A stretch of 64,000 bases of DNA from the NCBI GenBank assembly GCA_036785375.1, contig JAWMAR010000081.1, forward strand, positions 2,728,001-2,792,000, given 5' to 3'. Below the pieces are notes generated by a model. It ran no database searches and was not told where the DNA came from. It saw nothing but the letters and a program-made list of their open reading frames with translations. This document shows positions 15,721 through 42,066 of this stretch, one piece after another; within the stretch, counting starts at the first letter, position 1, and every line of letters starts with the position of its first letter. A program made the position numbers and the translations under genes. This DNA is from Leucoraja ocellata (taxonomy: Eukaryota).

Positions 15721-15721
15721 C

Positions 15722-16145: not shown

Positions 16146-16169
16146 CAATTACTCATCAATTTCTTGGTT

Positions 16170-16872: not shown

Positions 16873-17013
16873 CTTTAACTTCAGTATCTTTTACATTAGC
16901 ACGTTCAGGTTCTGGGATTGGATTGATCATATTAGGAGTATCAGTGAGTGGCAGCACATAGTTCGGCATTAATGTGACCACAAACGGAATATCTGAGCTT
17001 GGCACCTCATCAT
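16873..17013 (-). CDS. Repeat exon, 141 nt: DDEVPSSDIPFVVTLMPNYVLPLTDTPNMINPIPEPERANVKDTEVK
   Basis: cttatctctttag|AT ... AAA G|gtactt. Confidence 0.85.
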
Positions 17014-17162
17014 CTAAAGAGATAAGAAGGAAGGCAGAGAGAAAATGTGTAGTCTCACAAGGAAATTATACGTGTTGTTTAAATTAATAGTTTTGAATTC
17101 CTGCATAAAAGGAATACAATTTAATTAATAATGTTACTTTGCACACAATTATCAAATAGATA

Positions 17163-18773: not shown

Positions 18774-19531
18774 TATTCATTTGATATTATTCACAAAGCA
18801 TAATCTAGTACCAGGAAATCCATGAAGCAGGGTTGCTGCCATTTGAGAAACGCAATGTTTCCATCCAGTCGCAATGACAGGTTAGCACAAAACAAAGCCT
18901 CTATTTCCAGCTATGTAAGAATGTTGCCCAAATGATAGAGGCATCCAACACAAAAACAGGCCTACCAGGTCAAAACCAACCGTCAAATACTTAACCACCA
19001 ATCCCATTTATCAACACTTAGTCTCCAACCTTCTATGCTGCCTGGAAACATCAAATTGCAGCCATCCATTGGATGGATCCACCTCCCTCCTTCTCCCCCC
19101 CCCCCCCCGATATACTCACCAACCCTCTTACTCCCCCACATTAAACTATTATTATTAAATCCCATCTATCAGCGACAGACCCAATTTACCAGTTAATCAA
19201 ACTCGTTCTGTTAACTAAGACTATTCTCCTTACTGTCAACAAACTTCTTTACTCTCATTAGTATTGCTTTTCTTAACTGTCTTTTTTATCACACGCCTAA
19301 GATTCCAACATCAACATCTGATGAAGATAAGCAAAAGATTTGTCAATTTGGCTCAACATTAAACAGGTTATATACATGAATACTTGCAACTTTAACACAG
19401 ATTTAACTGTAAAAGCTTGTACAGCATGTGGCCTTAGTTTCCGGCACTCTTATAGAAACCTCAGCGTGAACTTATTATTATTTTATCTATTTCTCATTAC
19501 ACACTCAACGCACAAATGTTATCAAAGGTAC

Positions 19532-19657
19532 CTGCAACTTTAATATCTCCTATGTCTTCAGACTTGGTTATGGGATTGAGGATATTAGGAATGTCAGTAG
19601 CTGGTGGATCAGAGTCTGGGATTAAACTGAACATGTTAGAAGTTGGCACCTCATGGT
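19532..19657 (-). CDS. Repeat exon, 126 nt: DHEVPTSNMFSLIPDSDPPATDIPNILNPITKSEDIGDIKVA
   Basis: cttattccctcag|AC ... GCA G|gtacc. Confidence 0.85.
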
Positions 19658-20279
19658 CTGAGGGAATAAGAAGAAGCCAGGTACAAATTTTAATCTTGCC
19701 TGAAAATGTTTTTATATTGTTTTGATGTACACAATTGTATTCCTGTACATTATTACACTGCAACAATGTAGAATAGTTAATCTAACTACTAAATTACTAA
19801 ATGTATTCATGTCAAGTGATGAACTACACTAATTGGTAATACATTTTTACAGTACCAAACTAATCGAATGTTATGCCTAATTAATCCAAGTTACTCAAAA
19901 TGATTTAAACAAATGGTATGACAATAGATAAACCATGCAGTAATATTTTTCCACTATGAATAATACTTTTTAGCACCACAATATTCACAAAGAGTAATAA
20001 AACAACAGACACTCCATGCAGCAGCAATGTTCCTACTACAGAAAAGTTATTTAGCATTTAATAAACATTACAACAGAATAGCTGAGAGCTGGTTGAATTC
20101 CATGCAGGTAGTGTATGGATAATCACAGACACTTTGCAGACAAGTAATCCAAACAAACATTTAACAGTGTACACATGGAATAGCAGCTTCAGAACTTTGC
20201 TTAACAATCTGGTACTTTGGCACAATCTTCTCCCTGTACATGGTTATTTATTCTTAAACTCACTTTCATGACAAAAGTA

Positions 20280-20400
20280 TTGCCATTAGTATGATTTCGA
20301 TTTAGGGATTGGATGAATTACAATAGGAATGTTACTAAATACTAGATCAGAACCCGAGTTTAAACTAAACAGGGTAGGAGGCGCAATGGTTGCCTCTATT
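20280..20400 (-). pseudogene. Dead copy of the repeat exon
   Basis: Remnant core (gatttagggattgga...aataggaatgt) without the homologous splice sites. Confidence 0.45.
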
Positions 20401-20909
20401 GACTTTTCATGGACTCCAATGGTGTAGCATAAACCTCTACACATTTTCCAACCATTTGATACATGGATAGGAAAGACTATTGGATGGAAAGAGGAATACA
20501 GGCAAATTTGTGTCTAGCTTAGCTGGGTCTTAAATTCATTTTTAGAGGGTCAATGTGCTTTGGATCTTAAATGTAATATAATTATTTTGCAAATGTATAT
20601 TGACTTTTTTTTTAAACAAGTTCAAAGTGTTACTAACAATTTGCAAATGCCCAACACATTCAGTCAACAACAGCTGACACATTGACATTAAAGAAGCTGT
20701 CAAAGACATCCTGTGTGTGCAGTGAGCAGTCTATGCACAGACTCAGTTGGTAGTTAAGCCAAGGCACTGGGAGCTAAGACTTTGTGAACACTGGGTCATG
20801 GACCATACTGGAACTGTGTAACCCCGGGGCATGTAGCCAGTGATTTCAGCGCAATAAAAAATGTGCCCCAATTATTGATTAATTCATTCAATAATACGCC
20901 AATAATACA

Positions 20910-21320
20910 CCAACTGCACCCCCTCCACACACACCTGGATCTCCTGCCATCAGGCAAGAGATACCGTAGCATCAAAGCCCGAACTACCAGACTGCTAAAC
21001 AGCTTCCCGCCACAGGCTGTGAGGCTGCTAAACAGTCACTCCACCTGATTCTGCGGCTTTGCACTGACATTTTAATAACTCTGGCACTGGCCACTCAAAT
21101 CAGCTGCCCTGGACATTTTAATGACTGTTTTTACTGTATTTTAATGTTGCTGTTTTACCTGCTTTTATCTATTTATACTGTTTCATCAGGGACTGGATTG
21201 TTTTTACTGTTATTATGTGTGAAATGTTTTAAGTTTCATGGGCGATGCTCCGGTATTCCCTGGGAAACATCTTCTCATTTTGCACTGTACAACTGTTGCT
21301 TTGCAAGATGACAATAAAGG

Positions 21321-21352
<32 letters not shown>
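20910..21352 (+). mobile_element. Rex1/Babar-like LINE 3' end with (GATT)n tail
   Basis: ORF 20863-21048 HPLHTHLDLLPSGKRYRSIKARTTRLLNSF.PQAVRLLN; gacaataaa followed by about 7 GATT units. Confidence 0.85.
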
Positions 21353-21770
21353 CAATACAATCTGATATATATGGTATGATGAGAAAGTTCATGAGCAACA
21401 TTCTTTCCACTATGTCACAGCTAATTATTACTTAATACACTTTTCAACAATATTGTCATTGGTGAATGAACAAACACTTTACAGCTAACCAATCCCTAAA
21501 CTCAGTAAAACGAGGACATTGACAAACTAACCTAACAAAGGTAAGCATAAAGTACAAATTTTAAGAAATATGAAGTGGATTTCCCATAAACTGTGCCACA
21601 ACATTGAATGAACTGCATGCAAGACAGCATGTTGATATATTTTACACACATGCAATGTGAACACTGATTACACGGGGATTGTGTGGCATAGCATTAAAAG
21701 CATGCGCGCTAAACTTCTATTGCTTTAGCACACACCTAAACAACCAAGGAACAAATATTGGCAGAAATAC

Positions 21771-21911
21771 CTGTAACGTCAAATTCTTTTATCTTAGCGC
21801 GCTCAGTTTCTGGGATTGGATTGATCACATTAGGAGTATCAGAAACCAGAGGATTTAGGCCTGTTATTAAAGTAAGCACTTTAGGAGTGCGAGAAGTTGA
21901 AACCAAGTGGT
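21771..21911 (-). CDS. Repeat exon, 141 nt: DHLVSTSRTPKVLTLITGLNPLVSDTPNVINPIPETERAKIKEFDVT
   Basis: tttttatccctttag|AC ... ACA G|gtattt. Confidence 0.85.
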
Positions 21912-22473
21912 CTAAAGGGATAAAAAACAGAATTCTTATTTTCTGAATCTATGTTGTTTCTGTGAATAATATTGAAAATGCTAGACATCGTTGTTATGTA
22001 TTGATGCAGCACATCTGTTCTTACAGTGCAATAAAACTAAATATGCAAAACTAATGTAAACATGAATAATACTTTTCATAAAGTGCAAAATCAAATGAAC
22101 ATGAAGCATTGCCTCATTAACTCAACATTACTCAAATGATCAGATATAAGAACAGATGCTCCATGCCACAAAATATGCCCAAGAGAAGTTGATAGACTTT
22201 GCTGGTCTCTAAATGTCATGAAATAAGAAGCATGGCCAAATAATTCAACAAAGATATTTAAATGCTCTCTTCCAGGAAAAATGCAACAGTGTTCATTTCC
22301 AATATTTGCAATGAAACTGAAAAGTTGCCTGTAGACAGATTATTGTCAAATACTTGTTATACATTGGAAACTTGAACACAGTTTTAGTGGCAGTGCACCT
22401 ACAGCACATGTTCTTTGTCTTTTTAGCTCAAACCCTACAATCCATCACTAATTATATCCTCATTCAGAAGTGC

Positions 22474-22613
22474 CTGTAACTTTGATATAGCCTGTCTTAA
22501 TAACCTCAGATTTAGGATTTGGAGTGAACACAATAGGAATGTTTGTGACTGGAAACTCAAAGACTGGAATTAAATGTAATGCATTAGAGTGTCAGAGATC
22601 ATCACATCATGAC
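22474..22613 (-). pseudogene. Dead copy of the repeat exon
   Basis: Donor GT changed to GC, acceptor cag changed to cgg; length not a multiple of 3. Confidence 0.6.
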
Positions 22614-23215
22614 CCGAGGGGATAAAATTGAACTAAATGTCTAATTTAATTACTCTCTAACAAAAATAATAAAACATTGTTTTGATAGACATCATTATGG
22701 GGTGTATAACTGAACCTTTCTTCTTTCTGAGAATATTAAGTGAATTTCATTGCAACCATGAATTGTGACTGGTACTATTGTCGTTGCAGCATTGCACAAT
22801 TAAATCAACATTTCTCAAAGTTACTCATATAAAAATGTTACAACAACATGCAGTTACAAAGTTTTCACCTTTCAAATGGAACTACCGTTTAAGTAATTTT
22901 CCCAACAACACAGCAATGATATGCTCTGGACTCAAAACTCCATGAAATAAGTTTGTTGTCTAAATAACCTCAAACCAAATGCATAAATTTCAGGAGGAGA
23001 TATGCGGTGGGCTGCTATGTTTATAGATGCTTTGGCATATTACTGAATAATTGTATGCAAGATAATGTATTCAGCAATAAAATTACTTCACATACAAGTA
23101 ACTTGAACATGAATTTAACAGAAACATTATGGCATAGAATTTATAGCATATGTCAAAAAATTCTGCCACTCTAGCAATCAGTTAAATTCCCAAGTGAAAG
23201 TATTGTCAGAAGTAC

Positions 23216-23347
23216 CTGCAACTTCTGTATCTCTCATCCTAGTTGGTTGAGATTCTAGGATTGGATCGATCACATCAGTAACCGGCAGCTCATGGTTTAA
23301 CATTAAAGTAAACACGTTACTAGTGTCCGAGGTTGGCACCACCTGGT
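23216..23347 (-). CDS. Repeat exon, 132 nt: DQVVPTSDTSNVFTLMLNHELPVTDVIDPILESQPTRMRDTEVA
   Basis: ttatcccgagcag|AC ... GCA G|gtactt. Confidence 0.8.
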
Positions 23348-23850
23348 CTGCTCGGGATAAGGAAGAAGCCAGGTACAAAATTCTTAATCTTGCATGATGA
23401 TGCATGAACTTTCATAAATTAATTATATTTCATTATAGAGCATTGTCATTATTACATAGCAAACTTGCATGGTTCCCACTGTCTCACCATAACCTCCTTA
23501 TCCCTACTATCTTTACACCAGATCTATTTATTATTTCCTAACGGTTCCAAGGCCTTAACATTCCTGTTGAAATGTGATATCTGAATTTTCTGAACTATGC
23601 AACATAATAATTATTCAAGTACAAGTACAAGTAAATTCCCAGGCAATATGGAAGATTAGTCGTTTCCTGTTATGTCATGCAAGCTGTTATATTGACTATT
23701 AAATATTTTGCACAGGAGCAACACAAATAATGTGAGACAGATCTATAACATAAAAAAAAATGTCCTGTTATTTTAACAGGCATCTCAACATGCAAATTAT
23801 TTTTGCTCTGGCTGCAGTTTACAGTAAGGCACAAACATTATCAGAAATAC

Positions 23851-23997
23851 CTGTTATTTCTGTATCTTCTATTTTAGTAGTGTCAGACGCGTGGAGTGCA
23901 TTTGGAACATTTGAAATGTCAGTGACAGGTACGTTAATGTCTGAGATTAAACAGAAGATGTTAGGTATGTTAGAGGTCGGCAACACGGTCTGCTGTA
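23851..23997 (-). CDS. Repeat exon, 147 nt using a shifted acceptor: VQQTVLPTSNIPNIFCLISDINVPVTDISNVPNALHASDTTKIEDTEIT
   Basis: Donor ACA G|gtattt intact; the homologous acceptor gives 139 nt (frameshift), whereas upstream cttacttccag|TA gives phase 1. Confidence 0.55.
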
Positions 23998-24777
23998 CTG
24001 GAAGTAAGCTGGATATTAAATGTTCAAATGACATAATTATTGTTGAAAATTGAACTTATTACAATTACATTAGATGGTTTCCAATGCGGCAATAAATGCC
24101 ACAGGTAAAACAGATTTTATGTAACACAAAACTATCCCGACAATATAATTGATTAAGTGCACTGATTCAATATCGTTCAAAATAATTTGATGCACGACAT
24201 TACACGAGACTCTCCACACTGCAACATTACATCCATTATTTAGAGGCTATTCATAATTCAATGAATCAGAAGAAACAGAGACTGAATAGGTTAACACATC
24301 ACTTCTCAAACAAACTCAAAGTTTTATGAAATACGCTCATTTATTCCAGCATGGATGAGCAAAATGCTTAACTCCAGGTGATATGCCGTGCATTTCCCAA
24401 TTCCCAATATCAATACCAGAGCACAGAACAGATTGCATGTATTTTAGGATAGGTTTGCTAAAATCAAGGTCATGCATGGTGGAATGGGAAAAATGGGAAT
24501 GTGGAAAATGATAGTGGGGACCTGGGTTTGGCCAACAACGAAAAGCAAATTAAGGAAATATATCTATGTGTGGAGTATGCTTGTTTTCCAGGCTCTTCCA
24601 TACTTTACACACAACCAATACAAATGTTCACATAAATATTCATGTAAAAGCATAACATGGCATCTGTGGCACATGTCCAGACTTTCTTCCTTAATTGCGA
24701 TAAACATAAGCATGCACTTTTAATTATTTGCTCCATTGCTTACTTCAAACATAAAATACACAGATTGTTAGAACTAC

Positions 24778-24921
24778 CTGTAACATCTGCCTCTCCTATC
24801 TCAGTAGGATTGGGTTCTGGGATTGGATTAATCACACTGGGAATGTCTGTGGCTTGCCATTCATAGCCAGATATAAAAGAGAACACTTTAGTTGTATGAG
24901 CAGTTGATAATTCATGGTCTT
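24778..24921 (-). CDS. Array exon 1 (type A), 144 nt: EDHELSTAHTTKVFSFISGYEWQATDIPSVINPIPEPNPTEIGEADVT
   Basis: ttttatccttag|AA ... ACA G|gtagtt. Confidence 0.8.
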
Positions 24922-25401
24922 CTAAGGATAAAAAGGAAGCCAAATTACAAAATTCTAAATATTTTCTGATCATACACCTGCACTAAGTAGTTTCTTATGT
25001 ATATTAGCACATTGAACACTATAATTATTTAATTATTTATAAAGTATAGAACAACGTCCTCCAGCCCATGGGAATTATACGAGAACCTCATAGACCAATC
25101 CCATCAGTCCAATACCGCCTGTTTTTTCCTTGCAGCAATCATTCACATTGTTGCCAACAATAATGAACCAAGTTAAGGACTACATCTAAGGGCACAATAT
25201 GTTAGTGGTTTCCAGGCTCTTCCATGCCTTACACACAACCAATACAAATATTCACATAAATATTCATGTAAAAGCATAACATGGCATCTGTGGCATGTGT
25301 CCAGACGTTTTTCCTGAATTGTGATAAACATAAGCATGCACTTTTAATTATTTGCTCCACTGCTTTTTGTAAACATAGAATACACATATTGTTAGGACTA
25401 C

Positions 25402-25545
25402 CTGTAAATTCTGCCTCTCCTATCTTAGCAGGATCAGGTTCTGGGATTGGATTAATCACACTGGGAATGTCTGTGGCTTGCCGTTCATAGCCAGATATTA
25501 AAGAGAACACTGTAGTTGTGTGAGAAGTTGACAATTCATGGTCTT
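25402..25545 (-). CDS. Array exon 2 (type B), 144 nt: EDHELSTSHTTTVFSLISGYERQATDIPSVINPIPEPDPAKIGEAEFT
   Basis: Same splice sites, open frame. Confidence 0.8.
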
Positions 25546-26031
25546 CTAAGGATAAAAAGTAAGCCAAATTATAAAATTCCAAACATCTTCTGAATGTACA
25601 CCTGCATTGAGTAGTTTCCTTTGTATATTAGCACATTTAACATTATCATTAGTTAATTACTTAATACAGTATGGAACAAAATCATCTAACTCATTGGAAT
25701 TATATGAGATGCAAACCTAACAGAGCAATCCCATCAGTCTCATACCGCCTCTTATTTCCTGGCAACACTCTCTCACATTGTTTCCAACAACAAAGAAGCA
25801 AATTAAGGAAAGACCATAAGTGTACAGTATGTTTGTGTTTTCCAGGGTCTTCCATAACTTACACACAACCATTACAAATATTCATATAAATAGTCATGTA
25901 AAAGCATACCGTGGCAACTGTGGCACGTGTCCAGACTCTTCTCCTTAATTGTGATTAACATAAGCATGCATTTTTAATTATTTGTTTCATTGATAACTTC
26001 AAACATAAAATACACAGATTGTTAGAACTAC

Positions 26032-26175
26032 CTGTAACATCTGTCTCCACTATATTAGTAGGATCGGGTTCTGGGATTGGATTGATCACACTGGGAATGT
26101 CTGTGGCTTGCCGTTCATAGCCAGATATTAAAGTGAACACTTTAGTTGTGTGAGAAGTTGATAATTCATGGTTTT
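26032..26175 (-). CDS. Array exon 3 (type C), 144 nt: ENHELSTSHTTKVFTLISGYERQATDIPSVINPIPEPDPTNIVETDVT
   Basis: Same splice sites, open frame. Confidence 0.8.
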
Positions 26176-26655
26176 CTAAGGATAAAAAGGAAGCCAAATT
26201 ACAAAATTCTAAATATCTTCTGAACATACACCTGCGCTAAGTAGTTTCTTATGTACATTAGCACATTGAACACGACCATTACTTGATTATTTAATACAGT
26301 ACAAACAAAGTCATCCAGCCCATTGGAATGATACGAGAACCTCATAGAGCGATCCCATCAGTCCCATACCCCCTCCTATTTCCTTGCAACAGTCACTCAC
26401 ATTGTCGCCAACAATGACGAAGCAAGTTAAGGAAAGACCATAAGTGTACAGTATGTTTGTGTTTTCCAGGCTCTTCCATGGCTTACACACAACCAATCCA
26501 AATATTCATATAAATATGCATGTAAAAGCATACCATGGCAACTGTGGCACGTGTCCAGACTTTTTTCCATAAAAGTGATAAACCTAAGCATGCACTTTTG
26601 ATTATTTGCTCCATTGCTTATTTCAAACATAGAATATACATATTGTTAGGACTAC

Positions 26656-26799
26656 CTGTAAATTCTGCCTCTCCTATCTTAGCAGGGTCAAGTTCTGGGA
26701 TTGGATTGATCACACTGGGAATGTCTGTGGCTTGCTGTTCATAGCCAGATATTAAAGAGAACACTGTAGTTGTGTGAGAAGTTGACAATTCATGGTCTT
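26656..26799 (-). CDS. Array exon 4 (type D), 144 nt: EDHELSTSHTTTVFSLISGYEQQATDIPSVINPIPELDPAKIGEAEFT
   Basis: tttatccatag|AA ... ACA G|gtagtc. Confidence 0.8.
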
Positions 26800-27267
26800 C
26801 TATGGATAAAAAGGAAGCCAAGTTACAAAATTCTAACCATCTTCTGAATGTACACCTGCACTGAGTAGTTTCCCATGAATATTAGCTCATTGAAAATAAT
26901 CATTACTTAATTATTTAATACAGTAAGGAACAAAGTTATCCAGCTTATTAGAATTATATGAGAACCAAACAGAGCAATCCCATCACTCATACCGCCTCTT
27001 ATTTCCTTCCAACTCTCCCTCACATTGTTGCCAACAATGATGAAGCAAGTTAAGGAAAGACAGCTAAGTGTACAGTATGGTGTGTTTTGCATGCTCTGCC
27101 ATGACTTACACATAACCAAAACAAATATTCACATAAAGGCCTGGCATGGCATCTGTGGCACCTGTCCAGAAATTTCTCCTTAATTGTGATAAACCTAAGC
27201 ATGCACTTTTAATTATTTGCTCCATTGCTTATTTAAAACATGGAATACATAATATTGTTAGGACTAC

Positions 27268-27411
27268 CTGTAACATCTGCCTCTCCTATCTCAGTAGGAT
27301 CGGGTTCTGGGATTGGATTAATCACACTGGGAATGTCTGTGGCTTGCCGTTCATAGCCAGTTATAAAAGAGAACACTTTAGTTGTATGAGCAGTTGATAA
27401 TTCATGGTCTT
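27268..27411 (-). CDS. Array exon 5 (type A), 144 nt
   Basis: Same splice sites, open frame (ORF 27233-27463). Confidence 0.8.
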
Positions 27412-27891
27412 CTAAGGATAAAAAGGAAGCCAAATTACAAAATTCTAAATATTCTCTGATCATACACCTGCACTAAGTAGTTTCTTATGTATATTAGCAC
27501 ATTGAACACTATAATTATTTAATTATTTATAAAGTATAGAACAACGTCCTCCAGCCCATGGGAATTATACGAGAACCTCATAGACCAATCCCATCAGTCC
27601 AATACCGCCTGTTTTTTCCTTGCAGCAATCATTCACATTGTTGCCAACAATAATGAGCCAAGTTAAGGACTACATCTAAGGGCACAATATGTTAGTGGTT
27701 TCCAGGCTCTTCCATGCCTTACACACAACCAATACAAATATTCACATAAATATTCATGTAAAAGCATAACATGGCATCTGTGGCATGTGTCCAGACGTTT
27801 TTCCTGAATTGTGATAAACATAAGCATGCACTTTTAATTATTTCCTCCATTGCTTTTTATAAACATAGAATACACATATTGTTAGGACTAC

Positions 27892-28035
27892 CTGTAAATT
27901 CTGCCTCTCCTATCTTAGCAGGATCAGGTTCTGGGATTGGATTAATCACACTGGGAATGTCTGTGGCTTGCCGTTCATTGCCAGATATTAAAGGGAACAC
28001 TGTAGTTGTGTGAGAAGTTGACAATTCATGGTCTT
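27892..28035 (-). CDS. Array exon 6 (type B), 144 nt
   Basis: Same splice sites, open frame (ORF 27857-28072). Confidence 0.8.
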
Positions 28036-28522
28036 CTAAGGATAAAAAGTAAGCCAAATTATAAAATTCCAAACATCTTCTGAATGTACACCTGCATTGA
28101 GTAGTTTCCTTTGTATATTAGCACATTTAACATTATCATTAGTTAATTATTTAATACAGTATGGAACAAAATCATCCAGCTCATTGGAATTATATGAGAT
28201 GCAAACCTAACAGAGCAATCCCATCAGTCTCATACCGCCTCTTATTTCCTTGCAACACTCTCTCACATTGTTTCCAACAACGAAGAAGCAAATTAAGGAA
28301 AGATATCTATGTGTCGAGTATGTTTGTGTTTTCCAGGGTCTTCCATAACTTATACACAACCATTACAAATATTCATATAAATAGTCATGTAAAAGCATAC
28401 CGTGGCAACTGTGGCACATGTCCAGACTCTTCTCCTTAATTGTGATTAACATAAGCATGCATTTTTAATCATTTGCTTCATTGATAACTTCAAACATAAA
28501 ATACACAGATTGTTAGAACTAC

Positions 28523-28666
28523 CTGTAACATCTGTCTCCACTATATTAGTAGGATCGGGTTCTGGGATTGGATTGATCACACTGGGAATGTCTGTGGCTT
28601 GCCGTTCATAGCCAGATATTAAAGTGAACACTTTAGTTGTGTGAGAAGTTGATAATTCATGGTTTT
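28523..28666 (-). CDS. Array exon 7 (type C), 144 nt
   Basis: Same splice sites, open frame (ORF 28446-28718). Confidence 0.8.
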
Positions 28667-29086
28667 CTAAGGATAAAAAGGAAGCCAAATTACAAAATTC
28701 TAAATATCTTCTGAACATACACCTGCGCTAAGTAGTTTCTTATGTACATTAGCACATTGAACACGACCATTACTTGATTATTTAATACAGTACGAACAAA
28801 GTCATCCAGTCCATTGGAATGATACGAGAACCTCATAGAGCGATCCCATCAGTCCCATACCCCCTCCTATTTCCTTGCAACAGTCACTCACATTGTCGCC
28901 AACAATGACGAAGCAAGTTAAGGAAAGACCATAAGTGTACAGTATGAGTTCCTTTCATGCATACCATGGCAACTGTGGCACGTGTCCAGACTTTTTTCCA
29001 TAAAAGTGATAAACCTAAGCATGCACTTTTGATTATTTGCTCCATTGCTTATTTCAAACATAGAATATACATATTGTTAGGACTAC

Positions 29087-29230
29087 CTGTAAATTCTGCC
29101 TCTCCTATCTTAGCAGGATCAAGTTCTGGGATTGGATTGATCACACTGGGAATGTCTGTGGCTTGCTGTTCATAGCCAGATATTAAAGAGAACACTGTAG
29201 TTGTGTGAGAAGTTGACAATTCATGGTCTT
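29087..29230 (-). CDS. Array exon 8 (type D), 144 nt
   Basis: Same splice sites, open frame (ORF 29049-29252). Confidence 0.8.
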
Positions 29231-29585
29231 CTATGGATAAAAAGGAAGCCAAGTTACAAAATTCTAACCATCTTCTGAATGTACACCTGCACTGAGTAGT
29301 TTCCCATGAATATTAGCTCATTGAAAATAATCATTACTTAATTATTTAATACAGTAAGGAACAAAGTCATCCAGCTTATTAGAATTATATGAGAACCAAA
29401 CAGAGGAATCCCATCAGTCTCATACCGCCTCTTATTTCCTTCCAACGCTCCCTCACATTGTTGCCAACAATGATGAAGCAAGTTAAGGAAAGACAGCTAA
29501 GTGTACAGTATGCTGTGTTTTGCATGCTCTTCATTTACTCCATTGCTTATTTCAAACATGGAATACATAATATTGTTAGGACTAC

Positions 29586-29729
29586 CTGTAACATCTGCCT
29601 CTCCTATCTCAGTAGGATCGGGTTCTGGGATTTGATTGATCACACTGGGAATGTCTGTGGCTTGCCGTTCATAACCAGATATTAAAGAGAACACTGTAGT
29701 TGTGTGAGAAGTTGACAATTCATGGTCTT
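29586..29729 (-). CDS. Array exon 9 (chimera of type B/D and type A), 144 nt
   Basis: N-half TSHTTTVFSL (B/D type), C-half PTEIGEADVT (A type). Confidence 0.8.
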
Positions 29730-30208
29730 CTAAGGATAAAAAGGAAGCCAATTTCAAAATTCTAAATATTCTCTGATCATACACCTGCACTAAGTAGTTT
29801 CTTATGTATATTAGCACATTGAACACTATAATTATTTAATTATTTATAAAGTATAGAACAACGTCCTCCAGCCCATGGGAATTATACGAGAACCTCATAG
29901 AGCAACCCCATCAGTCCAATACCGCCTGTTTTTTCCTTGCAGCAATCATTCACATTGTTGCCAACAATAATGAACAAAGTTAAGGACTACATCTAAGGGC
30001 ACAGTATGTTAGTGGTTTCCAGGCTCTTCCATGCCTTACACACAACCAATACATATTTTCACATAAATATTCATGTAAAAGCATAACATGGCATCTGTGG
30101 CATGTGTCCAGATGTTTTTCCTGAATTGTGATTAACCTAAGCATGCACTTTTAATTATTTGCTCCATTGCTTTTTATAAACATAGAATACACATATTGTT
30201 AGGACTAC

Positions 30209-30352
30209 CTGTAAATTCTGCCTCTCCTATCTTAGCAGGATCAGGTTCTGGGATTGGATTAATCACACTGGGAATGTCTGTGGCTTGCCGTTCATTGCCA
30301 GATATTAAAGAGAACACTGTAGTTGTGTGAGAAGTTGACAATTCATGGTCTT
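30209..30352 (-). CDS. Array exon 10 (type B), 144 nt
   Basis: Same splice sites, open frame (ORF 30174-30374). Confidence 0.8.
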
Positions 30353-30840
30353 CTAAGGATAAAAAGTAAGCCAAATTATAAAAATTCCAAACATCTTCTG
30401 AATGTACACCTGCATTGAGTAGTTTTCTTTGTATATTAGCAGATTTAACATTATCATTAGTTAATTATTTAATACAGTATGGAACAAAATCATCCAGCTC
30501 ATTGGAATTATATGAGATGCAAACCTAACAGAGCAATCCCATCAGTCTCATACCGCCTCTTATTTCCTTGCAACACTCTCTCACATTGTTTCCAACAAAG
30601 AAGAAGCAAATTAAGGAAAGATATCTATGTGTCGAGTATGTTTGTGTTTTCCAGGGTCTTCCATAACTTACACACAACCATTACAAATATTCATATAAAT
30701 AGTCATGTAAAAGCATACCGTGGCAACTGTGGCACGTGTCCAGACTCTTCTCCTTAATTATGATAAACATAAGCATGCATTTTAAATTATTTGCTTCATT
30801 GATAACTTCAAACATAAAATACACAGATTGTTAGAACTAC

Positions 30841-30984
30841 CTGTAACATCTGTCTCCACTATATTAGTAGGATCGGGTTCTGGGATTGGATTGATCACAC
30901 TGGGAATGTCTGTGGCTTGCCGTTCATAGCCAGATATTAAAGTGAACACTTTAGTTGTGTGAGAAGTTGATAATTCATGGTTTT
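30841..30984 (-). CDS. Array exon 11 (type C), 144 nt
   Basis: Same splice sites, open frame (ORF 30782-31036). Confidence 0.8.
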
Positions 30985-31465
30985 CTAAGGATAAAAAGGA
31001 AGCCAAATTACAAAATTCTAAATATCTTCTGAACATACACCTGCGCTAAGTAGTTTCTTATGTACATTAGCACATTGAACACGACCATTACTTGATTATT
31101 TAATACAGTACGAACAAAGTCATCCAGTCCATTGGAATGATACGAGAACCTCATAGAGCGATCCCATCAGTCCCATACCCCCTCCTATTTCCTTGCAACA
31201 GTCACTCACATTGTCGCCAACAATGACGAAGCAAGTTAAGGAAAGACCATAAGTGTACAGTATGTTTGTGTTTTCCAGGCTCTTCCATGGCTTACACACA
31301 ACCAATCCAAATATTCACATAAATATTCATGTAAAAGCATAACATGGCATCTGTGGCACGTGTCCAGACTTTTTTCCTAAATTGTGATAAACCTAAGAAT
31401 GCGCTTTTAATTATTTGCTCCATTGCTTACTTCAAACATAGAATACACAGATTGTTGGAACTACC

Positions 31466-33723
31466 AACAAAGAAGAGTAGAACGGGGGTCTCAGTGTTGC
31501 AGTTGAATAAAGGGGACTATGGGGCAATAAGGGAGGAGCTGGCCAAAGTTGACTGGAAAGATACACTAGCAGGGATGACAGTGGAACAAATATGTCAGGT
31601 GTTTCTAAGAACGATAGAGAAGGTGCAGGATCAGTTCATTCCTAGGAGGAAGAAAGATTCCAAGGGGAGAAAGGGACGACCATGGCTGACAAGGGACGTC
31701 AGGGACAGTATAAAAATAAAAGCGAGCGGGAAGCAAGTGAGCGGGAAGCAAGTGGATTGGGTAATGTTTAAAGAACAACAGAAGATAACCAAAAAGACAA
31801 TACGGGTAGAAAAGATGAGGTATGAAGGTAAGCTAGCCAAGAATATAAAGCAGGTCCCACACAGGAGATTAGTAGGCAAAATTAGGGCACATGGTATTGG
31901 GGGTAGAGTGCTGACATGGATAGAGAAATAAAGCTTCTTTAGGTATGTGAAGAGGAAAAAATTAGTTATGACCAAAGTTGGACCCTTGAAGACCGAAAAG
32001 GTGAATTTATTATGGGGAACAAGGAAATGGTAGATGAGTTGAACAGGTACTTTGGGTCTGTCTTCATTAAGGAGGACACAAACAATCTTCCTGATATAGT
32101 AGTGGCCAGAGGATCTGGGGTGACAGAGGAACTGAAGGAAATCCACATTCGGCAGGAAATTGTGTTGGATAGACTGATGGGACTGAAGGCTGATTTATCC
32201 CCAGGGCCTGGTGGTCTGCATCCCAGGGTACTTAAGCAAGTGGCTCTAGAAATCGTGGATGCATTGGTGATAATTTTCCAATGTTCTATTGACTCAGGAT
32301 CAGTTCCTGTGGATTGGAGGGTAGCTAATGTTATCCCGCTGTTTAAGAAAGGCGGGAGAGAGAAAACAGGGAATTATAGACCAGTTAGCCTGACATCGGT
32401 GGTGGGGAAGATGCTGGAGTCAATTATAAAAAATGAGATAGCTGAACATTTGGATAGCAGTAACAGGATCCGTCCGAGTCAGCATGGATTTACGAACGGG
32501 AAATCATGCTTGACTAATCTTCTGGAATTTTTTGAAGATGTAACTAGGAAAACAGACAAGGGAGAGCCAGTGGATGTAGTGTACCTGGACTTTCAGAAAG
32601 CATTTGATAAGGTCCCACACAAGAGATTATTGGGCAAAATTAGGGCACATGGTATTGGGGGTAGAGTGCTGACATGGATAGAGAAGTGGTTGGCAGACAG
32701 TAAACAAAGAGTAGGGATTAACAGGTCCCTTTCAGAATGGCAGGCAGTGACTAGTGGGGTACCACAAGGCTCGGTACTGGGACCGCAGCTATTTACAATA
32801 TACATCAATGATTGGGATGAAGGCATTGAAAGTAATATTAGCAAATTTGCAGATGACACAAAACTGGGTGGCAGCGGGAACTGTGAGGAGGATTCCATGA
32901 GAATGCAGGGTGACTTTGACAGGTTGGGGGAGTGGGCAGATGCATGGCAGATGCAGTTTAATGCGGATAAATGTGAGGTAGCAAAAACAGGAAGGCAGAT
33001 TACTATATAAATGGCATCAAGTTGTGAAAAGGGAAAGTACAAATGGGATCTGGGGGTTCTTGTACATCAGTCTATGAAAGTAAGCATGCAGGTACAGCTG
33101 GAAGTAAAGAAAGCAAATGGCATATTGGCCTTTATAACAAGAGGAATCGAATATAGGAGCAAAGAGGTCCTTCTGCAGTTGTACAGAGCCCTAGTGAGAC
33201 CACAACTGGAGTATTGTGTACAGTTTTAGTCCCCTAATTTGAGGAAGGACATTCTTGCTATTGAGGGAGTGCAGCGTAGGTTTACAAGGTTAATTCCCGG
33301 GATGGCGGGACTGTCATATGGAGAGAGAATCGAGCAGCTGGCCTTGTACACTCTGGAGTTTAGAAGGATGAGAGGGTTTGGACATGCTAGAGACAGGAAA
33401 CATGTTCCCGATGTTGGGGGAGTCCAGAACCAGGGCCCACAGTTTAAGAATAAGGAGTAGGCCATTTAGAGCGGAGACGAGGAAACACTTTCTCACACAG
33501 AGAGTGGTGAATCTGTGGAGTTCTTTGCCTCAGAGGGCGGTGGAGGCGGGTTCTCTGGATGTTTTCAAAGGAGAGCAAGATAGGGCTCTTAAAAATAGCG
33601 GAGTCAGGGGATATGGGGAGAAGGCAGGGTCGGGGCACTGATTGGGGATGATCAGCCATGATCACATTGAATGGTGGTGCTGGCTCAAAGGGTTAAATGG
33701 CCTACTCCTGCATCTATTGTCTA
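31466..33723 (+). mobile_element. Young 5'-truncated CR1 LINE inserted at the splice donor of array exon 12
   Basis: RT ORF 32012-33010 ([38 protein letters not shown]); ctattgtcta tail; TACC on both sides. Confidence 0.95.
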
Positions 33724-33726
33724 TAC

Positions 33727-33840
33727 CTGAAAATTCTGCCTGTCTTATCTTAGCAGGATCAGGTTCGGGGATTGGATTGATCAAACTGGGAATGCTGGTG
33801 AACAGTTTAATTGTGTGAGAAGTTGACAATTCATGGTCCT
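33727..33840 (-). CDS. Array exon 12, 114 nt (30-nt in-frame deletion): EDHELSTSHTIKLFTSIPSLINPIPEPDPAKIRQAEFS
   Basis: ttttattcttag|AG ... TCA G|gtatag; the donor abuts the LINE tail. Confidence 0.6.
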
Positions 33841-34309
33841 CTAAGAATAAAAAGGAAGCCAAGTTACAAAATTCTAAACATCTTCTCAATGTACATCTGT
33901 GCCATGTAGTTTCCTATGAATATTAGCACATTGTAAATATTCATTACTTAATTTTTTAATACAGTAAGGAACAAAGTCATCCAGCTCATTAGAATTATAT
34001 GAGAACCAAACAGAGCAATCTCATCAGTTTCATACCGCCTCTTATTTTCTTCCAACGCTCTCTCACATTGTTGCCAACAATGATGAAGCAAGTTAAGGAA
34101 AGACAGCTAAGTGTACAGTATGCTGTGTTTTGCATGCTCTTCCATGCCTTACACATAACCAAAACAAATATTCACATAAAGGCCTGGCATGGCATCTGTG
34201 GCACCTGTCCAGACGTTTTTCCTTAATTGTGATGAACCTAAGCATGCACTTTCAATTATTTACTCCATTGCTTATTTCAAATATAGAATACACATATTGT
34301 TAAAACTAC

Positions 34310-34453
34310 CTGTAAATTCTGCCTCTCCTGCGTTAGTAGGATCGGGTTCTGGGATTGGATTAGTCACACTGGGAATGTCTGTGGCTTGCCGTTCATAGCC
34401 AGATATAAAAGAGAACACTTTAGTTGTGTGAGAAGTTGACAATTCATGGTCTT
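34310..34453 (-). CDS. Array exon 13, 144 nt
   Basis: Same splice sites, open frame (ORF 34272-34475). Confidence 0.8.
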
Positions 34454-34574
34454 CTAAGGATAAAAAGGAAGCCAAATTACAAAATTCTAAACATCTTCTG
34501 AATGTACACCTGCATTAAGTAGTTTCCTATGTATATTATCACGTTGAACATTATCATTACTTTATTATTTAATA

Positions 34575-36297
34575 CAATAGACAATGGGTGCAGGAGTAGG
34601 CCATTCGGCCCTTCGAGCCAGCACCGCCATTCAATGTGATCATGGCTGATCATCCCCAATCAGTACCCCGTTCCTGCCTTCTCCCTATATCCCTTGACTC
34701 CGCTATTTTCAAGAGCCCTATCTAGCTCTCTCTTGAAAGCATCCAGAGAACCGGCCTCCACCACCCTCTGAGGCAGAGAATTCCATAGACTCACAACTCT
34801 CTGTGTGAAAAGGTATTTCCTCATCTCCATTCTAAATGGCTTAGCCCCTATTCTTAAAATGTGGCCCCAGTTTCTGGACTCCCCCAACATCGGGAACATG
34901 TTTCCTGCCTCTAGCATGTCCAAACCCTTAATAATCTTATATGTTTCAACAAGATCCCCTCTCATCATTCTAAATTCCAGAGTATACAAGCCCAGCCATT
35001 CCATTCTATCAACATATGAAAGTCCTGTCATCCCAGGAATTAACCTTGTGAACCATTGCACTCCCTCAATAGCAAGAATGTCCTTCCTCAAATTTGGAGA
35101 CCAAAACTGCACATAATACTCCAGGTGTGGTCTCACTAGGGCCCTGTACAACTGGAGAAGGACCTCTTTGCTCCAATGTTCAACTCCTCTTGTTATGAAG
35201 GCCAACATGTAATTCGCTTTCTTCACTGCCTGCTGTACCTGCATGCTTACTTTCAGTGACTGATGAACAAGGACTCCCCAGATCCCACTGTACTTACCCT
35301 TTTTCCAATTTGTCACCATTTATATAGTAATCTGCCTTCCTGTTTTTGCCACCGATGTGGATAATCTCACATTTATCCACATTAAACTGCATCTGCCATG
35401 CATCTGCCCACTCACCCAAATTGTCCAAGTCACCCTGCATCCTCATAGCATCCTCCTCACCGTTCACAGTGCCACCCAGCTTTGTGTCATCTGCAAATTT
35501 GCTAATGTTACTTTCAATCCCTTCCTCAAATCATTAATATATATTGTAAATAGCTATGGTCCCAGGACCGAGCCTTACGGTACACCATTAGTCACTATTC
35601 TGAAAGGGACCCGTCAATCCCTACTCTTTGTTTCCTGCCTGCTAACCATTTTTCTATCCATGTCAGCACTCTACCCTTATACCATGTGATCTAATTTTGC
35701 CCTCTAATCTCCTATGTGGGACCTTATCAAATGCTTTCTGAAAGTCCAGGTACACCACATCCACTGGCTCTCCCTTGTCCATTTTCGCAGCTACATCCTC
35801 AAAAATTTCCAGAAGATTAGTCAAGCATGATTTCCCCTTTGTAATTCCATGCTGACTTGGACCTATTCTGATACCGCTATTCAAATGTGCCCCTATTTCA
35901 TCTTTTATAATTGACACCAGCATCTTCCCCACCACCGATGACAGGCTAACTAGCCTATAATTCCCTGTTTTCTCTTTCCCTCCTTTCTTAAAAAGTGGGA
36001 TAACATTAGCTACCCTCCAACCCCCAGGAACTGATCCCGAATCTTTCGAACATTGGAAAATGATCACCAAAGCGTCCATGATTTCTAGAGGCACTTCGTT
36101 AGGTACCCTGGGATGCAAAGCATCAGGCCTTGGGGATTTATCAACTTCCGTCCCATCAGTCTACACAACACCATTTTCTGCCTAATGTTAATTTCCTTCA
36201 GTTCCTCCGTCACCCTAGATCCTCTGGCCACTAGTACATCAGGAAGATTGTTTGTGTCCTCCTGAATGAAGACGGATCCAATCCAAAGTACCTGTTC
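34575..36297 (-). mobile_element. 5'-truncated CR1 LINE in an array intron
   Basis: ORFs 34660-35319 and 35663-36118 (VYLDFQKAFDKVPH); caatagacaat tail; about 90 bp of the unit intron is missing at the site. Confidence 0.95.
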
Positions 36298-36570
36298 GTT
36301 GCAACACTCTCTCACATCGTCGCCAACAACGAAGAAGCAAATTAAGGAAAGATATTTGTGTGTTGAGTATGTTTGTGTTTTCCAGGCTCTTCCATAACTT
36401 ACACACAACCATTACAAATATTCACATAAATATGCATGTAAAAGCATACCTGGCATCTGTGGCACATGTCCAGACTGTTTTCCTTAATTGTGATAAACCT
36501 AAGCATGCATTTGTAATTATTTGCTTCATTGTTTACTTCAAACATAAAATACACAGATTGTTAGAACTAC

Positions 36571-36714
36571 CTGTAATATCTGTATCTCCCATATTAGTAG
36601 GATCAGGTTCTGGGATTGGATTGATCACACTGGGAATGTCTGTGGCTTGCTGTTCATAGCCAGATATTAAAGTGAACACTTTAGTTGTGTGAGAAGTTGA
36701 TAATTCATGGTCTT
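36571..36714 (-). CDS. Array exon 14, 144 nt
   Basis: Same splice sites, open frame (ORF 36533-36763). Confidence 0.8.
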
Positions 36715-37190
36715 CTAAGGATAAAAAAGCCAAATTACCAATGTCTAAATATCTTCTGAACATACACTTGCACCAAGTAGTTTCCTATGTATATCAGCAC
36801 ATTGAACACTACCATTACATAATTATTTAATACAGTACGGAACAAACTCATCCAGCTCATTTGAATGATACGAGAACATAATAGAGCGATCCCATCAGTC
36901 CCATACCCCCTCTTATTTCCTTGCAACACTCAGTCACATTGTCACCAACAATGACAAAGCAAGTTAAGGAAAGACCATAATTGCAGTTTGTTTGTGTTTT
37001 CCAGGCTCTTCCATGGGCTTACACACAACCAATACAAATATTCACATAAATATTCATGTAAACGCATATCATGGCAACTGTGGCATGTGTCCAGACTTTT
37101 TTCCTTAATTGTGATAAACATAAGCATGCACTTTTAATTATTTGCTCCATGCTTACGTCAAACATAAAATACACAGATTGTTAGAACTAC

Positions 37191-37334
37191 CTGTAACATC
37201 TGCCTCGACTATCTTAGTACGATCGGAATCGGGGATTGGATTGATCACACTGGGAATGTCTGTGGCTTGCCGTTCATAGCCAGATATTAAAGTGAACAGT
37301 TTAGTTGTGTGAGAAGTTGACAATTCATGGTCTT
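37191..37334 (-). CDS. Array exon 15, 144 nt: EDHELSTSHTTKLFTLISGYERQATDIPSVINPIPDSDRTKIVEADVT
   Basis: Same splice sites, open frame (translated by hand). Confidence 0.8.
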
Positions 37335-37805
37335 CTAAGGATAAAAAGGAAGCCGAGTTACAAAATTCTAAATATCTTGTAAACGTACACCTGATGCTTA
37401 GTAGTTTCCTATGTACATTAGCACATTGAACACTACCATTGGTTAATTATTTAATACAGTACGGAACAAAGCCATCCAGCCCATTGGAATTATATGGGAA
37501 CCTAACAGAGCGAACCCATCAATTCCATACCGCTTCTTATTTCCTTCCAACACTCACTCACATTGTCGCCAGCAAAGAAGAAGCAAATTAAGGACAGACA
37601 TCTAAGTGTACAGTATGTTTGTGTTTTCCAGCTTCTTCCATGCCTTACACACAACCAATACAAATGTTCACGTAAAAGCCTAGTATGGCATCTGTGGCAC
37701 GTGTGCAGACTATTTCCCTTAATTGTGATAAACCTAAACATGCATTTTTAATTATTTTCTCCATTGCTTAATTCAAACATAAAATACACAGATTGTTAGA
37801 ACTAC

Positions 37806-37949
37806 CTGTAACATCTGCCTCTCCTATCTTAGCAGGATCAGGTTCTGGGATTGGATTGATCACACTGGGAATGTCTGTAGCTTGCCGTTCATAGCCAGAT
37901 ATTAATGTGAACACTTTAGTTGTGTGAGAAGTTGACAATTCATGGTCTT
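37806..37949 (-). CDS. Array exon 16, 144 nt
   Basis: Same splice sites, open frame (ORF 37768-37971). Confidence 0.8.
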
Positions 37950-38429
37950 CTAAGGATAAAAAGGAAGTCAAATTACAAAATTCTAAATATCTTCTAAACG
38001 TGCACCTGACACCGAGTAGTTTCCTATGTTTATTAGCACATTGAACACTACCATTAGTTAATTATTTATAGAGTATGGAACAACTCCACTAGCCCATGGG
38101 AATTATATGAGAACCTAACAGAGGGATCCCATCAGTCCAATACCGCCTGTTTTTTCCTTGCAGCAATCACTCACATTGTTGCCAACAATGATGAAGCAAG
38201 TTAAGGACAGACATCTAAGGGCACAGCATGTTTGTGTTTCCAGGCTCTTCCATGCCTTATACACAACCAATTCAAATATTAACATAAATATTAATTTAAA
38301 AGCATAACATAGCATCTGTGGCACGTGTCCAGATTTCTTTCCTTAATTGTGATAAACCTAAGCATACACTTTTAATTATTTACTCTATTGTTTACTTCAA
38401 ACATAGAATACACAGATTGTTAGGACTAC

Positions 38430-38573
38430 CTGTAAATTCTGCCTCTCCTATCTTAGCAGGATCAGGTTCTGGGATTGGATTGATCACACTGGGAATGTCT
38501 GTGGCTTGCCGCTCATGGCCAGATATTAAAGTGAACACTTTAGTTGTGTGAGAAGTTGACAATTCATGGTCTT
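38430..38573 (-). CDS. Array exon 17, 144 nt
   Basis: Same splice sites, open frame (ORF 38392-38595). Confidence 0.8.
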
Positions 38574-38871
38574 CTAAGGATAAAAAGGAAGTCAAATTAC
38601 AAAATTCTAAATATCTTGTAAATGTACACCTGATGCTTAGTAGTTTCCTATGTACATTAGCACATTGAACACTACCATTACTTAATGATTTAATACAGTA
38701 CGGAACAAAGTCATCCAGTCCATTGGAATTATAGGGGAACCTAACAGAGCAATCTCGTCAGTTCCATACTGCCTCTTATTTCCTTGCATAACTCACTCAC
38801 ATACCAACAGGTCACCGCTCTTCTTTTGCCACACAGTTCTTACATTAGAGTTATTGATTGCGGTTATTAAG

Positions 38872-41320: not shown

Positions 41321-41464
41321 CTGTGACTTCACTAAATCTTATTTTAGCTGGTTCAGATTTTATGGCTGGATTCAACACATGTGGAGGAGAGTCAGACACT
41401 GGCTGCTTATGACCTGGCAATAAGGTGACCACATTAGGAGTTTGAGAAGATGATACTGTATGGT
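41321..41464 (-). CDS. Repeat exon, 144 nt: DHTVSSSQTPNVVTLLPGHKQPVSDSPPHVLNPAIKSEPAKIRFSEVT
   Basis: ttttatttcctcag|AC ... ACA G|gtactt. Confidence 0.85.
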
Positions 41465-42066
41465 CTGAGGAAATAAAAAGGTAGCAGGATTTTTAAAAAA
41501 CATCTCCCATGTAAACCTCCCCAAGGTACCACGGAATTCCAACACAAACACAAATTGACAATATACTTTTCATAAAACAATCCATACATATTAACAAATT
41601 AATTATTTACAGAAAATGTTGCATTTGAGTGAGATGACAACAGACAGTCCATGCATAACATTGCTTCCACAACCCAAAAGCCAATGATAATCTAAAAAGC
41701 TTTGGTGTAAAGTAGATTTAATAAACTGAATGACAAATTATAGCCAAGCGCAATCTATAAACTAGATGAGGAAGGGACATTGACAAGTAATGCATCAGAA
41801 AAAAAGCAAAGGTGGTTCAAGTCTTTGTGAATTGCAGTGGATTGTTCATTCCATATAAATTGTGCAACTGGAATGAATGGATTCCATGCAAGACAGTGAC
41901 TTAACATATACATCTCACACGCAGACTGACTGAACACTAAACTAGAAAGGAGTGGCATGGCAACTGCAGCGTGTGTCTCCACTTTCAGACACTTAAGCAC
42001 AAATTTCAACATGCAACTATGATTTACCTCACTCCCAAGTTCAGACACAAATATTGTCAGAAGTAC

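What the first reader, a model, noticed from the sequence alone, without database searches (positions are those of the whole stretch)
24530..34460. Satellite-like higher-order repeat made of coding exons (ABCD, about 3 copies)
Seen: ~620-bp exon+intron monomers fall into four types (A ...TAHTTKVFSF...TEIGEADVT; B ...AKIGEAEFT; C ENH...TNIVETDVT; D ...YEQQ...PELD...). They recur at +2490, +2490, +2491 and +2431 bp, and by eye HOR copies are much more alike than neighbouring monomers. The intron at 33840-34310 is again of the D-to-A type. Inference: monomers amplified first, then the 4-exon block amplified recently by unequal crossing-over, adding 192 aa per step. Copy number is probably polymorphic and may be collapsed in the assembly.
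Basis: partly seen in the sequence, partly recalled or inferred. Interest (0 to 1): 0.7.

Follow-up and report, generated by a model that had tools for sequence, protein, structure and literature searches.

The report
Triplicated four-exon block in skate ABI3BP
In a skate, the gene for the extracellular-matrix protein ABI3BP has grown a row of 17 near-identical exons, four of which were later copied together as a block almost three times; this known way of lengthening a protein has produced a different repeat pattern in each skate lineage examined.

Summary
Window 24531-38802 holds 17 tandem ~620-bp exon+intron monomers on the minus strand, all open phase-1 exons with AG/GT ends. A four-monomer block of 2.49 kb is present 2.7 times (24778-~31310). 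Block copies differ by 1.6-3.0%, unlike monomers by 10-16%; the tree gives the predicted groups. The gene is ABI3BP/TARSH of a skate, and the array lies in its S/T/P/acidic spacer.

Leucoraja erinacea RefSeq models carry the same 16 full-length units in the same order, so the block is no assembly artefact and predates the split of the two lineages. Amblyraja models have all four monomer types but no four-unit repeat, with one- and two-unit amplifications instead; Rhinoraja has its own two-unit repeat. This supports 'monomers first, block later'. Chimaeric block ends fit unequal crossing-over.

Copy-number polymorphism and assembly collapse are not supported: summed contig depth fits about 17 copies, and individuals were not compared. 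Expression was not seen in two RNA runs. Residues evolve near-neutrally while the frame is kept.

Verdict: a new member of a known kind (titin PEVK, nebulin and NBPF exon-block repeats); no description found in print.

The parts
24531..38802 (-). Array of 17 exon+intron monomers (~620 bp) inside the ABI3BP/TARSH gene
24778..27267 (-). Block copy 1 (exons U1 A, U2 B, U3 C, U4 D), 2490 bp; left end at the 3' end of exon U1
27268..29585 (-). Block copy 2 (U5-U8), 2318 bp; two intron deletions near 28946-28959 and 29532; 36 mismatches in 2313 aligned bases against copy 1
29586..31310 (-). Block copy 3, incomplete (U9-U11 and most of the D-type intron); near 31310 it switches to the older D* intron
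31466..33723 (+). LINE fragment with a reverse-transcriptase frame, inserted in the splice donor of U12 with a 4-bp duplication that leaves a GT at the exon end; the CR1-type label is recalled
33727..33840 (-). U12 (D*), 114-nt exon, weakest donor score of the 17; absent from 3 of 3 L. erinacea models read
34310..34453 (-). U13 (A*), older unit; its type stands four times in a row in Amblyraja models
34577..36297 (-). Second LINE fragment (85% alike to the first, opposite direction) in the intron between U14 and U13, with about 90 bp of intron lost
36298..38802 (-). Four older monomers U14 (C-like), U15, U16, U17; orthologues in Amblyraja and L. erinacea models
41321..63372 (-). Ten upstream spacer exons of the same gene (near 63372, 60609, 60046, 57410, 52768, 51406, 46806, 45568, 42204, 41464)
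10..23940 (-). Nine downstream spacer exons of the same gene (near 23940, 23347, 21911, 19657, 17013, 13683, 10888, 10208, 99); the FN3 and TARSH_C exons lie outside the window

Best explanation
This is an intragenic exon-block repeat in the spacer of skate ABI3BP/TARSH, a matrix protein with FN3 domains on either side of a long S/T/P/acidic region. Step 1 (shown by comparison): one symmetric phase-1, 48-codon spacer exon, single in two stingray-group proteins, was amplified with its intron into an array in skates. Step 2 (shown): types A, B, C, D and the older units had diverged before Amblyraja and the window's lineage split. Step 3 (inferred): older near-duplicates inside the array (A with A', D with D*) let chromatids mispair out of register. 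Crossovers between A-type exons copied the D-C-B-A block twice, and a D*/D crossover removed one A'-D pair; this leaves 2.7 copies with chimaeric ends. It happened before the split from L. erinacea (shown). Step 4 (mosaic shown, mechanism inferred): short conversion tracts still move between monomers. Because every exon is phase 1-1, any gain, loss or skipping keeps the frame. The likely effect is a longer, probably disordered and O-glycosylated acidic spacer (192 aa per block); selection keeps frame and splice sites, not residues, so the period of four is most likely a by-product of recombination rather than a functional unit.
For: Period 4 beyond chance and predicted clades. Left end at U1's donor and right end inside the D intron, where 41 mismatches over ~1730 bp give way to 16 over ~142 bp. 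Gene identity: best profile hit is Amblyraja 'target of Nesh-SH3' with TARSH_C and FN3; window exons match skate models exon by exon and in order. L. erinacea X1: 16 units, same order, 12 differences in 752 aa, sharing copy-specific marks such as the N variant in the two upstream B units and the Q variant in U9. Amblyraja X25, X26, X30: one C and one B each, four identical A* units, an A''-D pair twice. Rhinoraja: 11 units, last four alternate (lag-2 differences 1 and 4 against 10-12 at lag 1). Hemitrygon and Mobula: one copy of this exon, another exon three or four times. pN/pS 0.75; 12 of 44 derived alleles synonymous (p 0.41); 1 exon indel, in frame, against 25 intron gap events. Composition S+T 24%, P 10%, D+E 17%, no Cys. 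Monomer model pTM 0.14, no secondary-structure elements listed. Human ABI3BP has a disordered region that is partly spliced out (PMC13518942, passage).
Against: No spliced RNA over these exons was seen in two RNA runs of a related organism. The comparison rests on RefSeq protein models, not on the relatives' DNA; in near-identical exons such models can mis-join or omit units, and only 4 of at least 30 Amblyraja isoforms and 3 of at least 5 L. erinacea isoforms were seen. U5 differs between the window (A-like 5' half) and L. erinacea (U9-like), so the history is not fully clean. The crossover order is one parsimonious path, not the only one. No stop in 44 exon changes has a 0.20 chance under neutrality, so open frames alone do not prove function. 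Disorder and glycosylation were not measured.
Confidence: 0.8

Rival explanations
1. The block is an active, length-polymorphic repeat (as in titin and nebulin), with two, three, four or more copies segregating in the species.
For: 98% identical 2.5-kb tandem blocks are substrates for unequal exchange; U5 changed after the split from L. erinacea; human TTN and NEB blocks vary in number (PMC9142044, abstract and introduction).
Against: Same three blocks in an independent lineage; the copies have drifted 1.6-3.0% apart with private deletions, which frequent exchange would erase; depth in two DNA runs fits about 17 units. Rare variants are not excluded.
Confidence: 0.3
2. The array is an alternative-splicing device: exons are included in variable numbers to tune spacer length by tissue, and block copies add range.
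For: RefSeq isoforms differ in array units (Amblyraja 8 or 13; L. erinacea 15 or 16; Rhinoraja 9, 10 or 11); all exons are symmetric; human ABI3BP's disordered region is alternatively spliced (PMC13518942, passage). This can hold together with the best explanation.
Against: Short reads cannot be placed uniquely among 98-100% identical exons, so skipped-unit models may be artefacts; own RNA gave no joints. Strictly mutually exclusive use is not what the models show.
Confidence: 0.35
3. The four-unit period was selected because the 192-aa block is a functional module (binding or glycosylation pattern).
For: C-type exons are identical in all three copies (0 differences); the array is kept open in three skate genera.
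Against: Other skates have periods of one and two from the same monomers; no purifying signal on residues; B and D exons differ by only 2-4%.
Confidence: 0.08
4. The block triplication is an assembly artefact, or the visible array is a collapsed piece of a much longer one.
For: No spanning long read was seen; contig depth is a rough measure.
Against: Copies differ at 36 of 2313 sites and by private deletions; an independent assembly's models give the same order; depth ratio 9.6 and 13.8 against 9.1 simulated.
Confidence: 0.03

Closest known systems
Titin PEVK segmental duplication (9-exon block three times plus two exons; PMC9142044)
   Same: Block of several short exons repeated three times inside an older array of related exons in a low-complexity spacer, with an incomplete extra copy.
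   Different: Here 4 exons and 2.5 kb per block against about 10 kb for the whole titin region (a third of nebulin's 30 kb in that paper); an extracellular protein; copy-number variation shown for titin, not here.
Nebulin triplicate region (8 exons three times; PMC9109913 listing, PMC9142044)
   Same: Intragenic triplication of a multi-exon block built from older monomers; repeat number differs between species (PMC7754682, title and short abstract).
   Different: Nebulin repeats bind actin in register (recalled); no such constraint is seen here; no phenotype known.
NBPF 3-mer higher-order repeat / Olduvai triplets (PMC9584774)
   Same: Exon+intron monomers nested in a higher-order block; copies ~1.6% apart against much larger monomer distances; lineage-specific.
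   Different: NBPF monomers are ~1.6 kb with two exons and ~18% apart, in about 50 copies; here one exon, 10-16% apart, 2.7 copies.
ABI3BP/TARSH of cartilaginous fishes (RefSeq models P0001, P0047, P0052, P0071, P0082)
   Same: Same gene, same exon family, same order of flanking exons.
   Different: The models list the repeats but give no account of the block structure; the L. erinacea record is named 'mucin-2' although it bears TARSH_C and FN3.

Membership tests
ABI3BP/TARSH orthologue | Exon-by-exon identity and order with named ABI3BP models | tested here: met
   Non-array exons differ at 9 of 629 aa from Amblyraja X26, 4 of 548 from L. erinacea X1 (15 of 17 exons compared; two absent from that model), 52 of 630 from Rhinoraja X1; order kept.
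ABI3BP/TARSH orthologue | Two FN3 domains and the TARSH C-terminal domain (PF21731) | tested here: inconclusive
   Met in the matching proteins (P0001: TARSH_C E 7.7e-50, fn3 two stretches), but these exons lie outside the window.
ABI3BP/TARSH orthologue | Conserved gene neighbourhood | not testable with these tools
   No whole genome is held; the gene fills the window.
Higher-order repeat (definition in PMC9584774) | Copies under 5% apart and much closer than monomers within a copy | tested here: met
   1.56%, 2.69%, 3.04% between blocks against 10-16% between unlike monomers.
Higher-order repeat (definition in PMC9584774) | [quoted passage not shown] | tested here: inconclusive
   Two complete copies and 0.7 of a third.
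Alpha-satellite-type array | Centromeric array with monomers 20-40% apart | tested here: not met
   14 kb inside a protein-coding gene; monomers 10-16% apart.
Intragenic exon-block duplication (TTN, NEB type) | Multi-exon block repeated in tandem within one gene, frame kept | tested here: met
Intragenic exon-block duplication (TTN, NEB type) | Copy-number variation among individuals | not testable with these tools
   Only short contigs of one run per organism were laid, on one monomer.
Mutually exclusive tandem exon cluster | One exon of the cluster per transcript | tested here: inconclusive
   RefSeq models join 8-16 units in a row, which speaks against it; own RNA gave no coverage.
Mucin-type PTS domain | Dense O-glycosylation of an S/T/P-rich repeat | not testable with these tools
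   S+T 24%, P 10%, but also D+E 17% and many aliphatic residues.

The most novel reading that the evidence does not exclude
The ABI3BP spacer is a tunable molecular ruler of the cartilaginous-fish matrix. Its length is under selection and has been raised repeatedly by different exon amplifications (period four here, one and two in Amblyraja, two in Rhinoraja, other exons in stingrays and sharks), and it is further adjusted by splicing and by block copy number. One orthologous array would then show higher-order repeats of different periods arising in parallel, with introns recording each crossover.
Probability: 0.15. Interest if true: 0.65.

Novelty: new member of a known kind. Interest (0 to 1): 0.36.

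Why it matters
Multi-exon block repeats are known from titin, nebulin and NBPF, so the kind is not new. This case is small, fully readable and bracketed by relatives: the same monomer array took a four-unit period in one skate lineage and one- or two-unit periods in two others. That makes it a compact test of how higher-order repeats start from pre-existing near-duplicates. It also shows that ABI3BP, whose general function is described as largely unknown (PMC6426741), tolerates about 800 extra residues in its spacer, and it corrects a 'mucin-2' label.

Tried and rejected
Tandem Repeats Finder misses the array (period above 500). Word-seeded protein search with one exon found nothing; a profile of 17 spacer exons found the gene. 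Of its 17 hits, P0010 and P0013-P0017 were dropped as chance matches (unrelated Pfam families or none); P0006, P0007, P0011 and P0012 were not examined. No relative of 4007-5000 aa was found (weak evidence). Pfam has no family for the monomer. The single-sequence fold of P0003 failed even on its known domains (mean pLDDT 31) and is not used. No RNA holder was listed for the stretch; two RNA runs of organism B (about 5 and 3 in 100 read) gave no exon coverage beyond a trace on the minus strand in X23, which says nothing for or against function. Per-site letter counts were incomplete and are not used to type alleles. An inversion between the two opposed LINEs was rejected: the exons between them keep the gene's strand and the LINEs are only 85% alike. 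Positive or purifying selection on residues was not detected. Searches of this scan's earlier notes gave nothing on this gene. The paper on Abi3bp in mesenchymal stem cells was not held. No paper supplements were read.
Full report
OBSERVATION. A self-comparison shows a tandem array from 24531 to 38802, broken by two insertions. Each ~620-bp monomer is one minus-strand exon plus one intron. There are 17 exons, U1 (left) to U17 (right): 16 of 144 nt and one (U12) of 114 nt. All 17 are open, phase 1-1 and bounded by AG and GT. Unlike monomers differ by 10-16%. Monomers four apart differ by 1.1-3.2% within U2-U11. Mean distance by lag has its minimum at four (6.9% against 12.4-13.9% at lags 1-3 and 5-7), and 0 of 20,000 shuffled orders reach it. 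With monomers cut as upstream intron + exon, the tree groups 1/5/9, 2/6/10, 3/7/11 and 4/8(+12) at 99-100 bootstrap.

EXTENT OF THE BLOCK. Copy 1 (24778-27267) and copy 2 (27268-29585) differ at 36 of 2313 aligned bases, plus two intron deletions in copy 2. Copy 3 differs from copy 1 at 57 of 1876 and from copy 2 at 49 of 1819, but 16 of the 57 fall in the last ~142 bases: near 31310 the D-type intron switches to an older relative. On the left, block likeness starts at the 3' end of exon U1; the intron beyond it is not of the A type. So there are 2.7 copies with two chimaeric ends. U12, U13 and U14 are older relatives of D, A and C (5.6-8% away); U15-U17 are older still. Short tracts of the wrong type occur inside the block: a D-type patch in U3's intron and a B/D-type 5' half in exon U9.

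THE GENE. One exon found nothing by word search. A profile of 17 spacer exons gave 17 hits. The seven named ones I looked up are from cartilaginous fishes: five are ABI3BP/'target of Nesh-SH3', one an FN3 protein and one hypothetical; six of the seven bear TARSH_C and FN3. The window holds 19 further spacer exons that match skate models in order; both ends of the gene lie outside it. Non-array exons differ at 4 of 548 aa from Leucoraja erinacea X1, 9 of 629 from Amblyraja radiata X26 and 52 of 630 from Rhinoraja longicauda X1. The window is therefore a skate close to, but not the same as, the L. erinacea record. That record is named 'mucin-2' but carries TARSH_C and FN3.

RELATIVES. L. erinacea X1 and X4 have 16 array units in the window's order, without U12; X5 has 15. 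They differ from the window at 12 of 752 aa and share copy-specific marks, so the blocks correspond one to one and predate the split. Four of the 12 differences lie in U5, which is U1-like in the window and U9-like in L. erinacea: at least one exchange came after the split. The Amblyraja isoforms seen (X25, X26, X30 and no others parsed) have U17-U14, four identical U13-type units, D units alternating with an A-like unit twice, and one C, one B and one A. All four types were thus present before the four-unit block arose, and Amblyraja amplified with periods one and two. Rhinoraja has 11 units of its own; the last four alternate. Hemitrygon and Mobula have this exon once and a different spacer exon three or four times. 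These are gene models, not DNA, and may mis-join near-identical exons.

ARTEFACT OR COLLAPSE. I laid four runs on 5200-25150, which holds one monomer. Run X2 (organism A) differs from the window at 18 of 14,407 bases in its eight listed pieces, and run X4 (organism B) at 188 of 15,069. Summed contig depth over the monomer bin is 9.6 and 13.8 times the unique depth. A simulation with the window's own array gives 9.1 for pieces of 48 bases or more at 88% likeness, and 7.3 to 28.9 over the length filters tried at that likeness. The tool warns that this depth is no copy number; it shows that the array is multi-copy in two organisms and gives no sign of a large collapse. Polymorphism among individuals was not tested.

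EXPRESSION. Two RNA runs of organism B, read in small part, gave no coverage of the exons beyond a trace in X23. Splicing of the array rests on the RefSeq models alone.

SELECTION AND STRUCTURE. Among 10 representative exons pN/pS is 0.75; 12 of 44 derived alleles are synonymous against about a quarter expected (p 0.41); the chance of no stop under neutrality is 0.20. Of 27 gap events in the alignment, one lies in an exon and is in frame, one is the LINE's duplication at the U12 donor, and 25 are intronic (by hand, roughly 1 in 100 if indels fell at random, counting one gap due to the second LINE and some nested ones). The peptide has S+T 24%, P 10%, D+E 17%, K+R 4% and no Cys. A model of the monomer has pTM 0.14 and no listed secondary structure; a whole-protein fold failed and is not used. 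Frame and splice sites look kept, residues do not.

MECHANISM. Shown: monomer array, older near-duplicates within it, a younger four-unit block with chimaeric ends, and lineage-specific periods. Inferred: an ancestral order (in transcript direction) C*, A*, D*, A', D, C, B, A. Mispairing of A with A' copies D-C-B-A; two such events and one D*/D crossover that removes an A'-D pair give the window's order and both junctions. The reciprocal D*/D product, a doubled A'-D pair, is what the Amblyraja models show. Other paths are possible. Symmetric exons make every outcome frame-neutral, so the spacer lengthens by 48 or 192 aa per step. A LINE landed in U12's donor; U12 has also lost 30 nt and is missing from 3 of 3 L. 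erinacea models, so it is probably decaying. Several decayed spacer exons elsewhere in the window point to birth and death of exons. The likely function is that of a long acidic, probably glycosylated tether between FN3 domains; this is inference from composition and from the human protein.

COMPARISON WITH WHAT IS KNOWN. Titin's PEVK region has a 9-exon block three times plus two exons, and nebulin a similar triplicate, both variable in copy number (PMC9142044: abstract and introduction read; PMC9109913: search listing; PMC7754682: title and short abstract). NBPF monomers of exons and introns form a 3-mer higher-order repeat with copies ~1.6% and monomers ~18% apart (PMC9584774: passages). 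ABI3BP is a matrix protein acting through integrin beta-1, with general function largely unknown (PMC6426741: passages); its disordered region is partly spliced out in human stromal cells (PMC13518942: passage). A paper on tandem exon duplications does not mention ABI3BP in its main text (PMC9013439: term search). In nurse shark spleen the gene marks vascular cells (PMC10529500: passage).

NOVELTY. The kind is known. I found no description of this array in the held library: 'ABI3BP' with 'skate' gave 2 papers and with 'tandem repeat' 10, none on it by title and abstract start; broader searches listed none either. Most subscription papers and all supplements were not seen. Earlier notes of this scan hold nothing on this gene.

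VERDICT. Real, correctly described, and now placed in a gene and a time bracket. The polymorphism and collapse guesses are unsupported. New member of a known kind; interest 0.36, chiefly for the parallel origin of different repeat periods in one orthologous array.

Noticed in passing
window 31466-33723: The LINE sits exactly in U12's splice donor with a 4-bp duplication, so the exon keeps a GT followed by the LINE's tail in antisense. It also carries an internal copy of about 80 bp (near 31850-31930) of its own downstream reverse-transcriptase region (near 32610-32690), seen by eye.
   Followed up: partly
window ~49700, 44811-44668, ~44150, 22620-22470, ~20400, ~14800, ~14300, ~12950 (minus strand): Decayed copies of spacer exons (stops, frameshifts or lost splice sites) not matched by the skate models; the one at ~22500 has a live counterpart in stingray proteins.
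   Followed up: partly
P0082 (Stegostoma) residues ~860-1330; P0041 (Hemiscyllium) ~930-1120: Shark ABI3BP spacers seem to alternate two exon types, an older period-two pattern; seen by eye only.
   Followed up: no
P0071 (Hemitrygon) 1059-1287; P0037 (Mobula) 1078-1264: Stingray-group proteins amplified other spacer exons: the counterpart of window exon 13683 three or four times, and another exon twice in Hemitrygon.
   Followed up: partly
window U2/U6/U10 against U4/U8 exons: B and D exons differ by only 2-4% while their introns differ by 12-15%, suggesting exon-limited conversion between monomers two apart.
   Followed up: partly
window 28946-28959: The deletion of about 60 bp in block copy 2 has a short filler of about 12 bases that matches neither flank directly.
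   Followed up: no
window 17150-18786: Tc1/mariner-type transposon remnant with ~240-bp inverted ends (89% alike) and transposase fragments.
   Followed up: no
P0032, P0046, P0047: L. erinacea ABI3BP is named 'mucin-2' in RefSeq; Rhinoraja, Mobula and Cetorhinus copies are 'uncharacterized'.
   Followed up: yes
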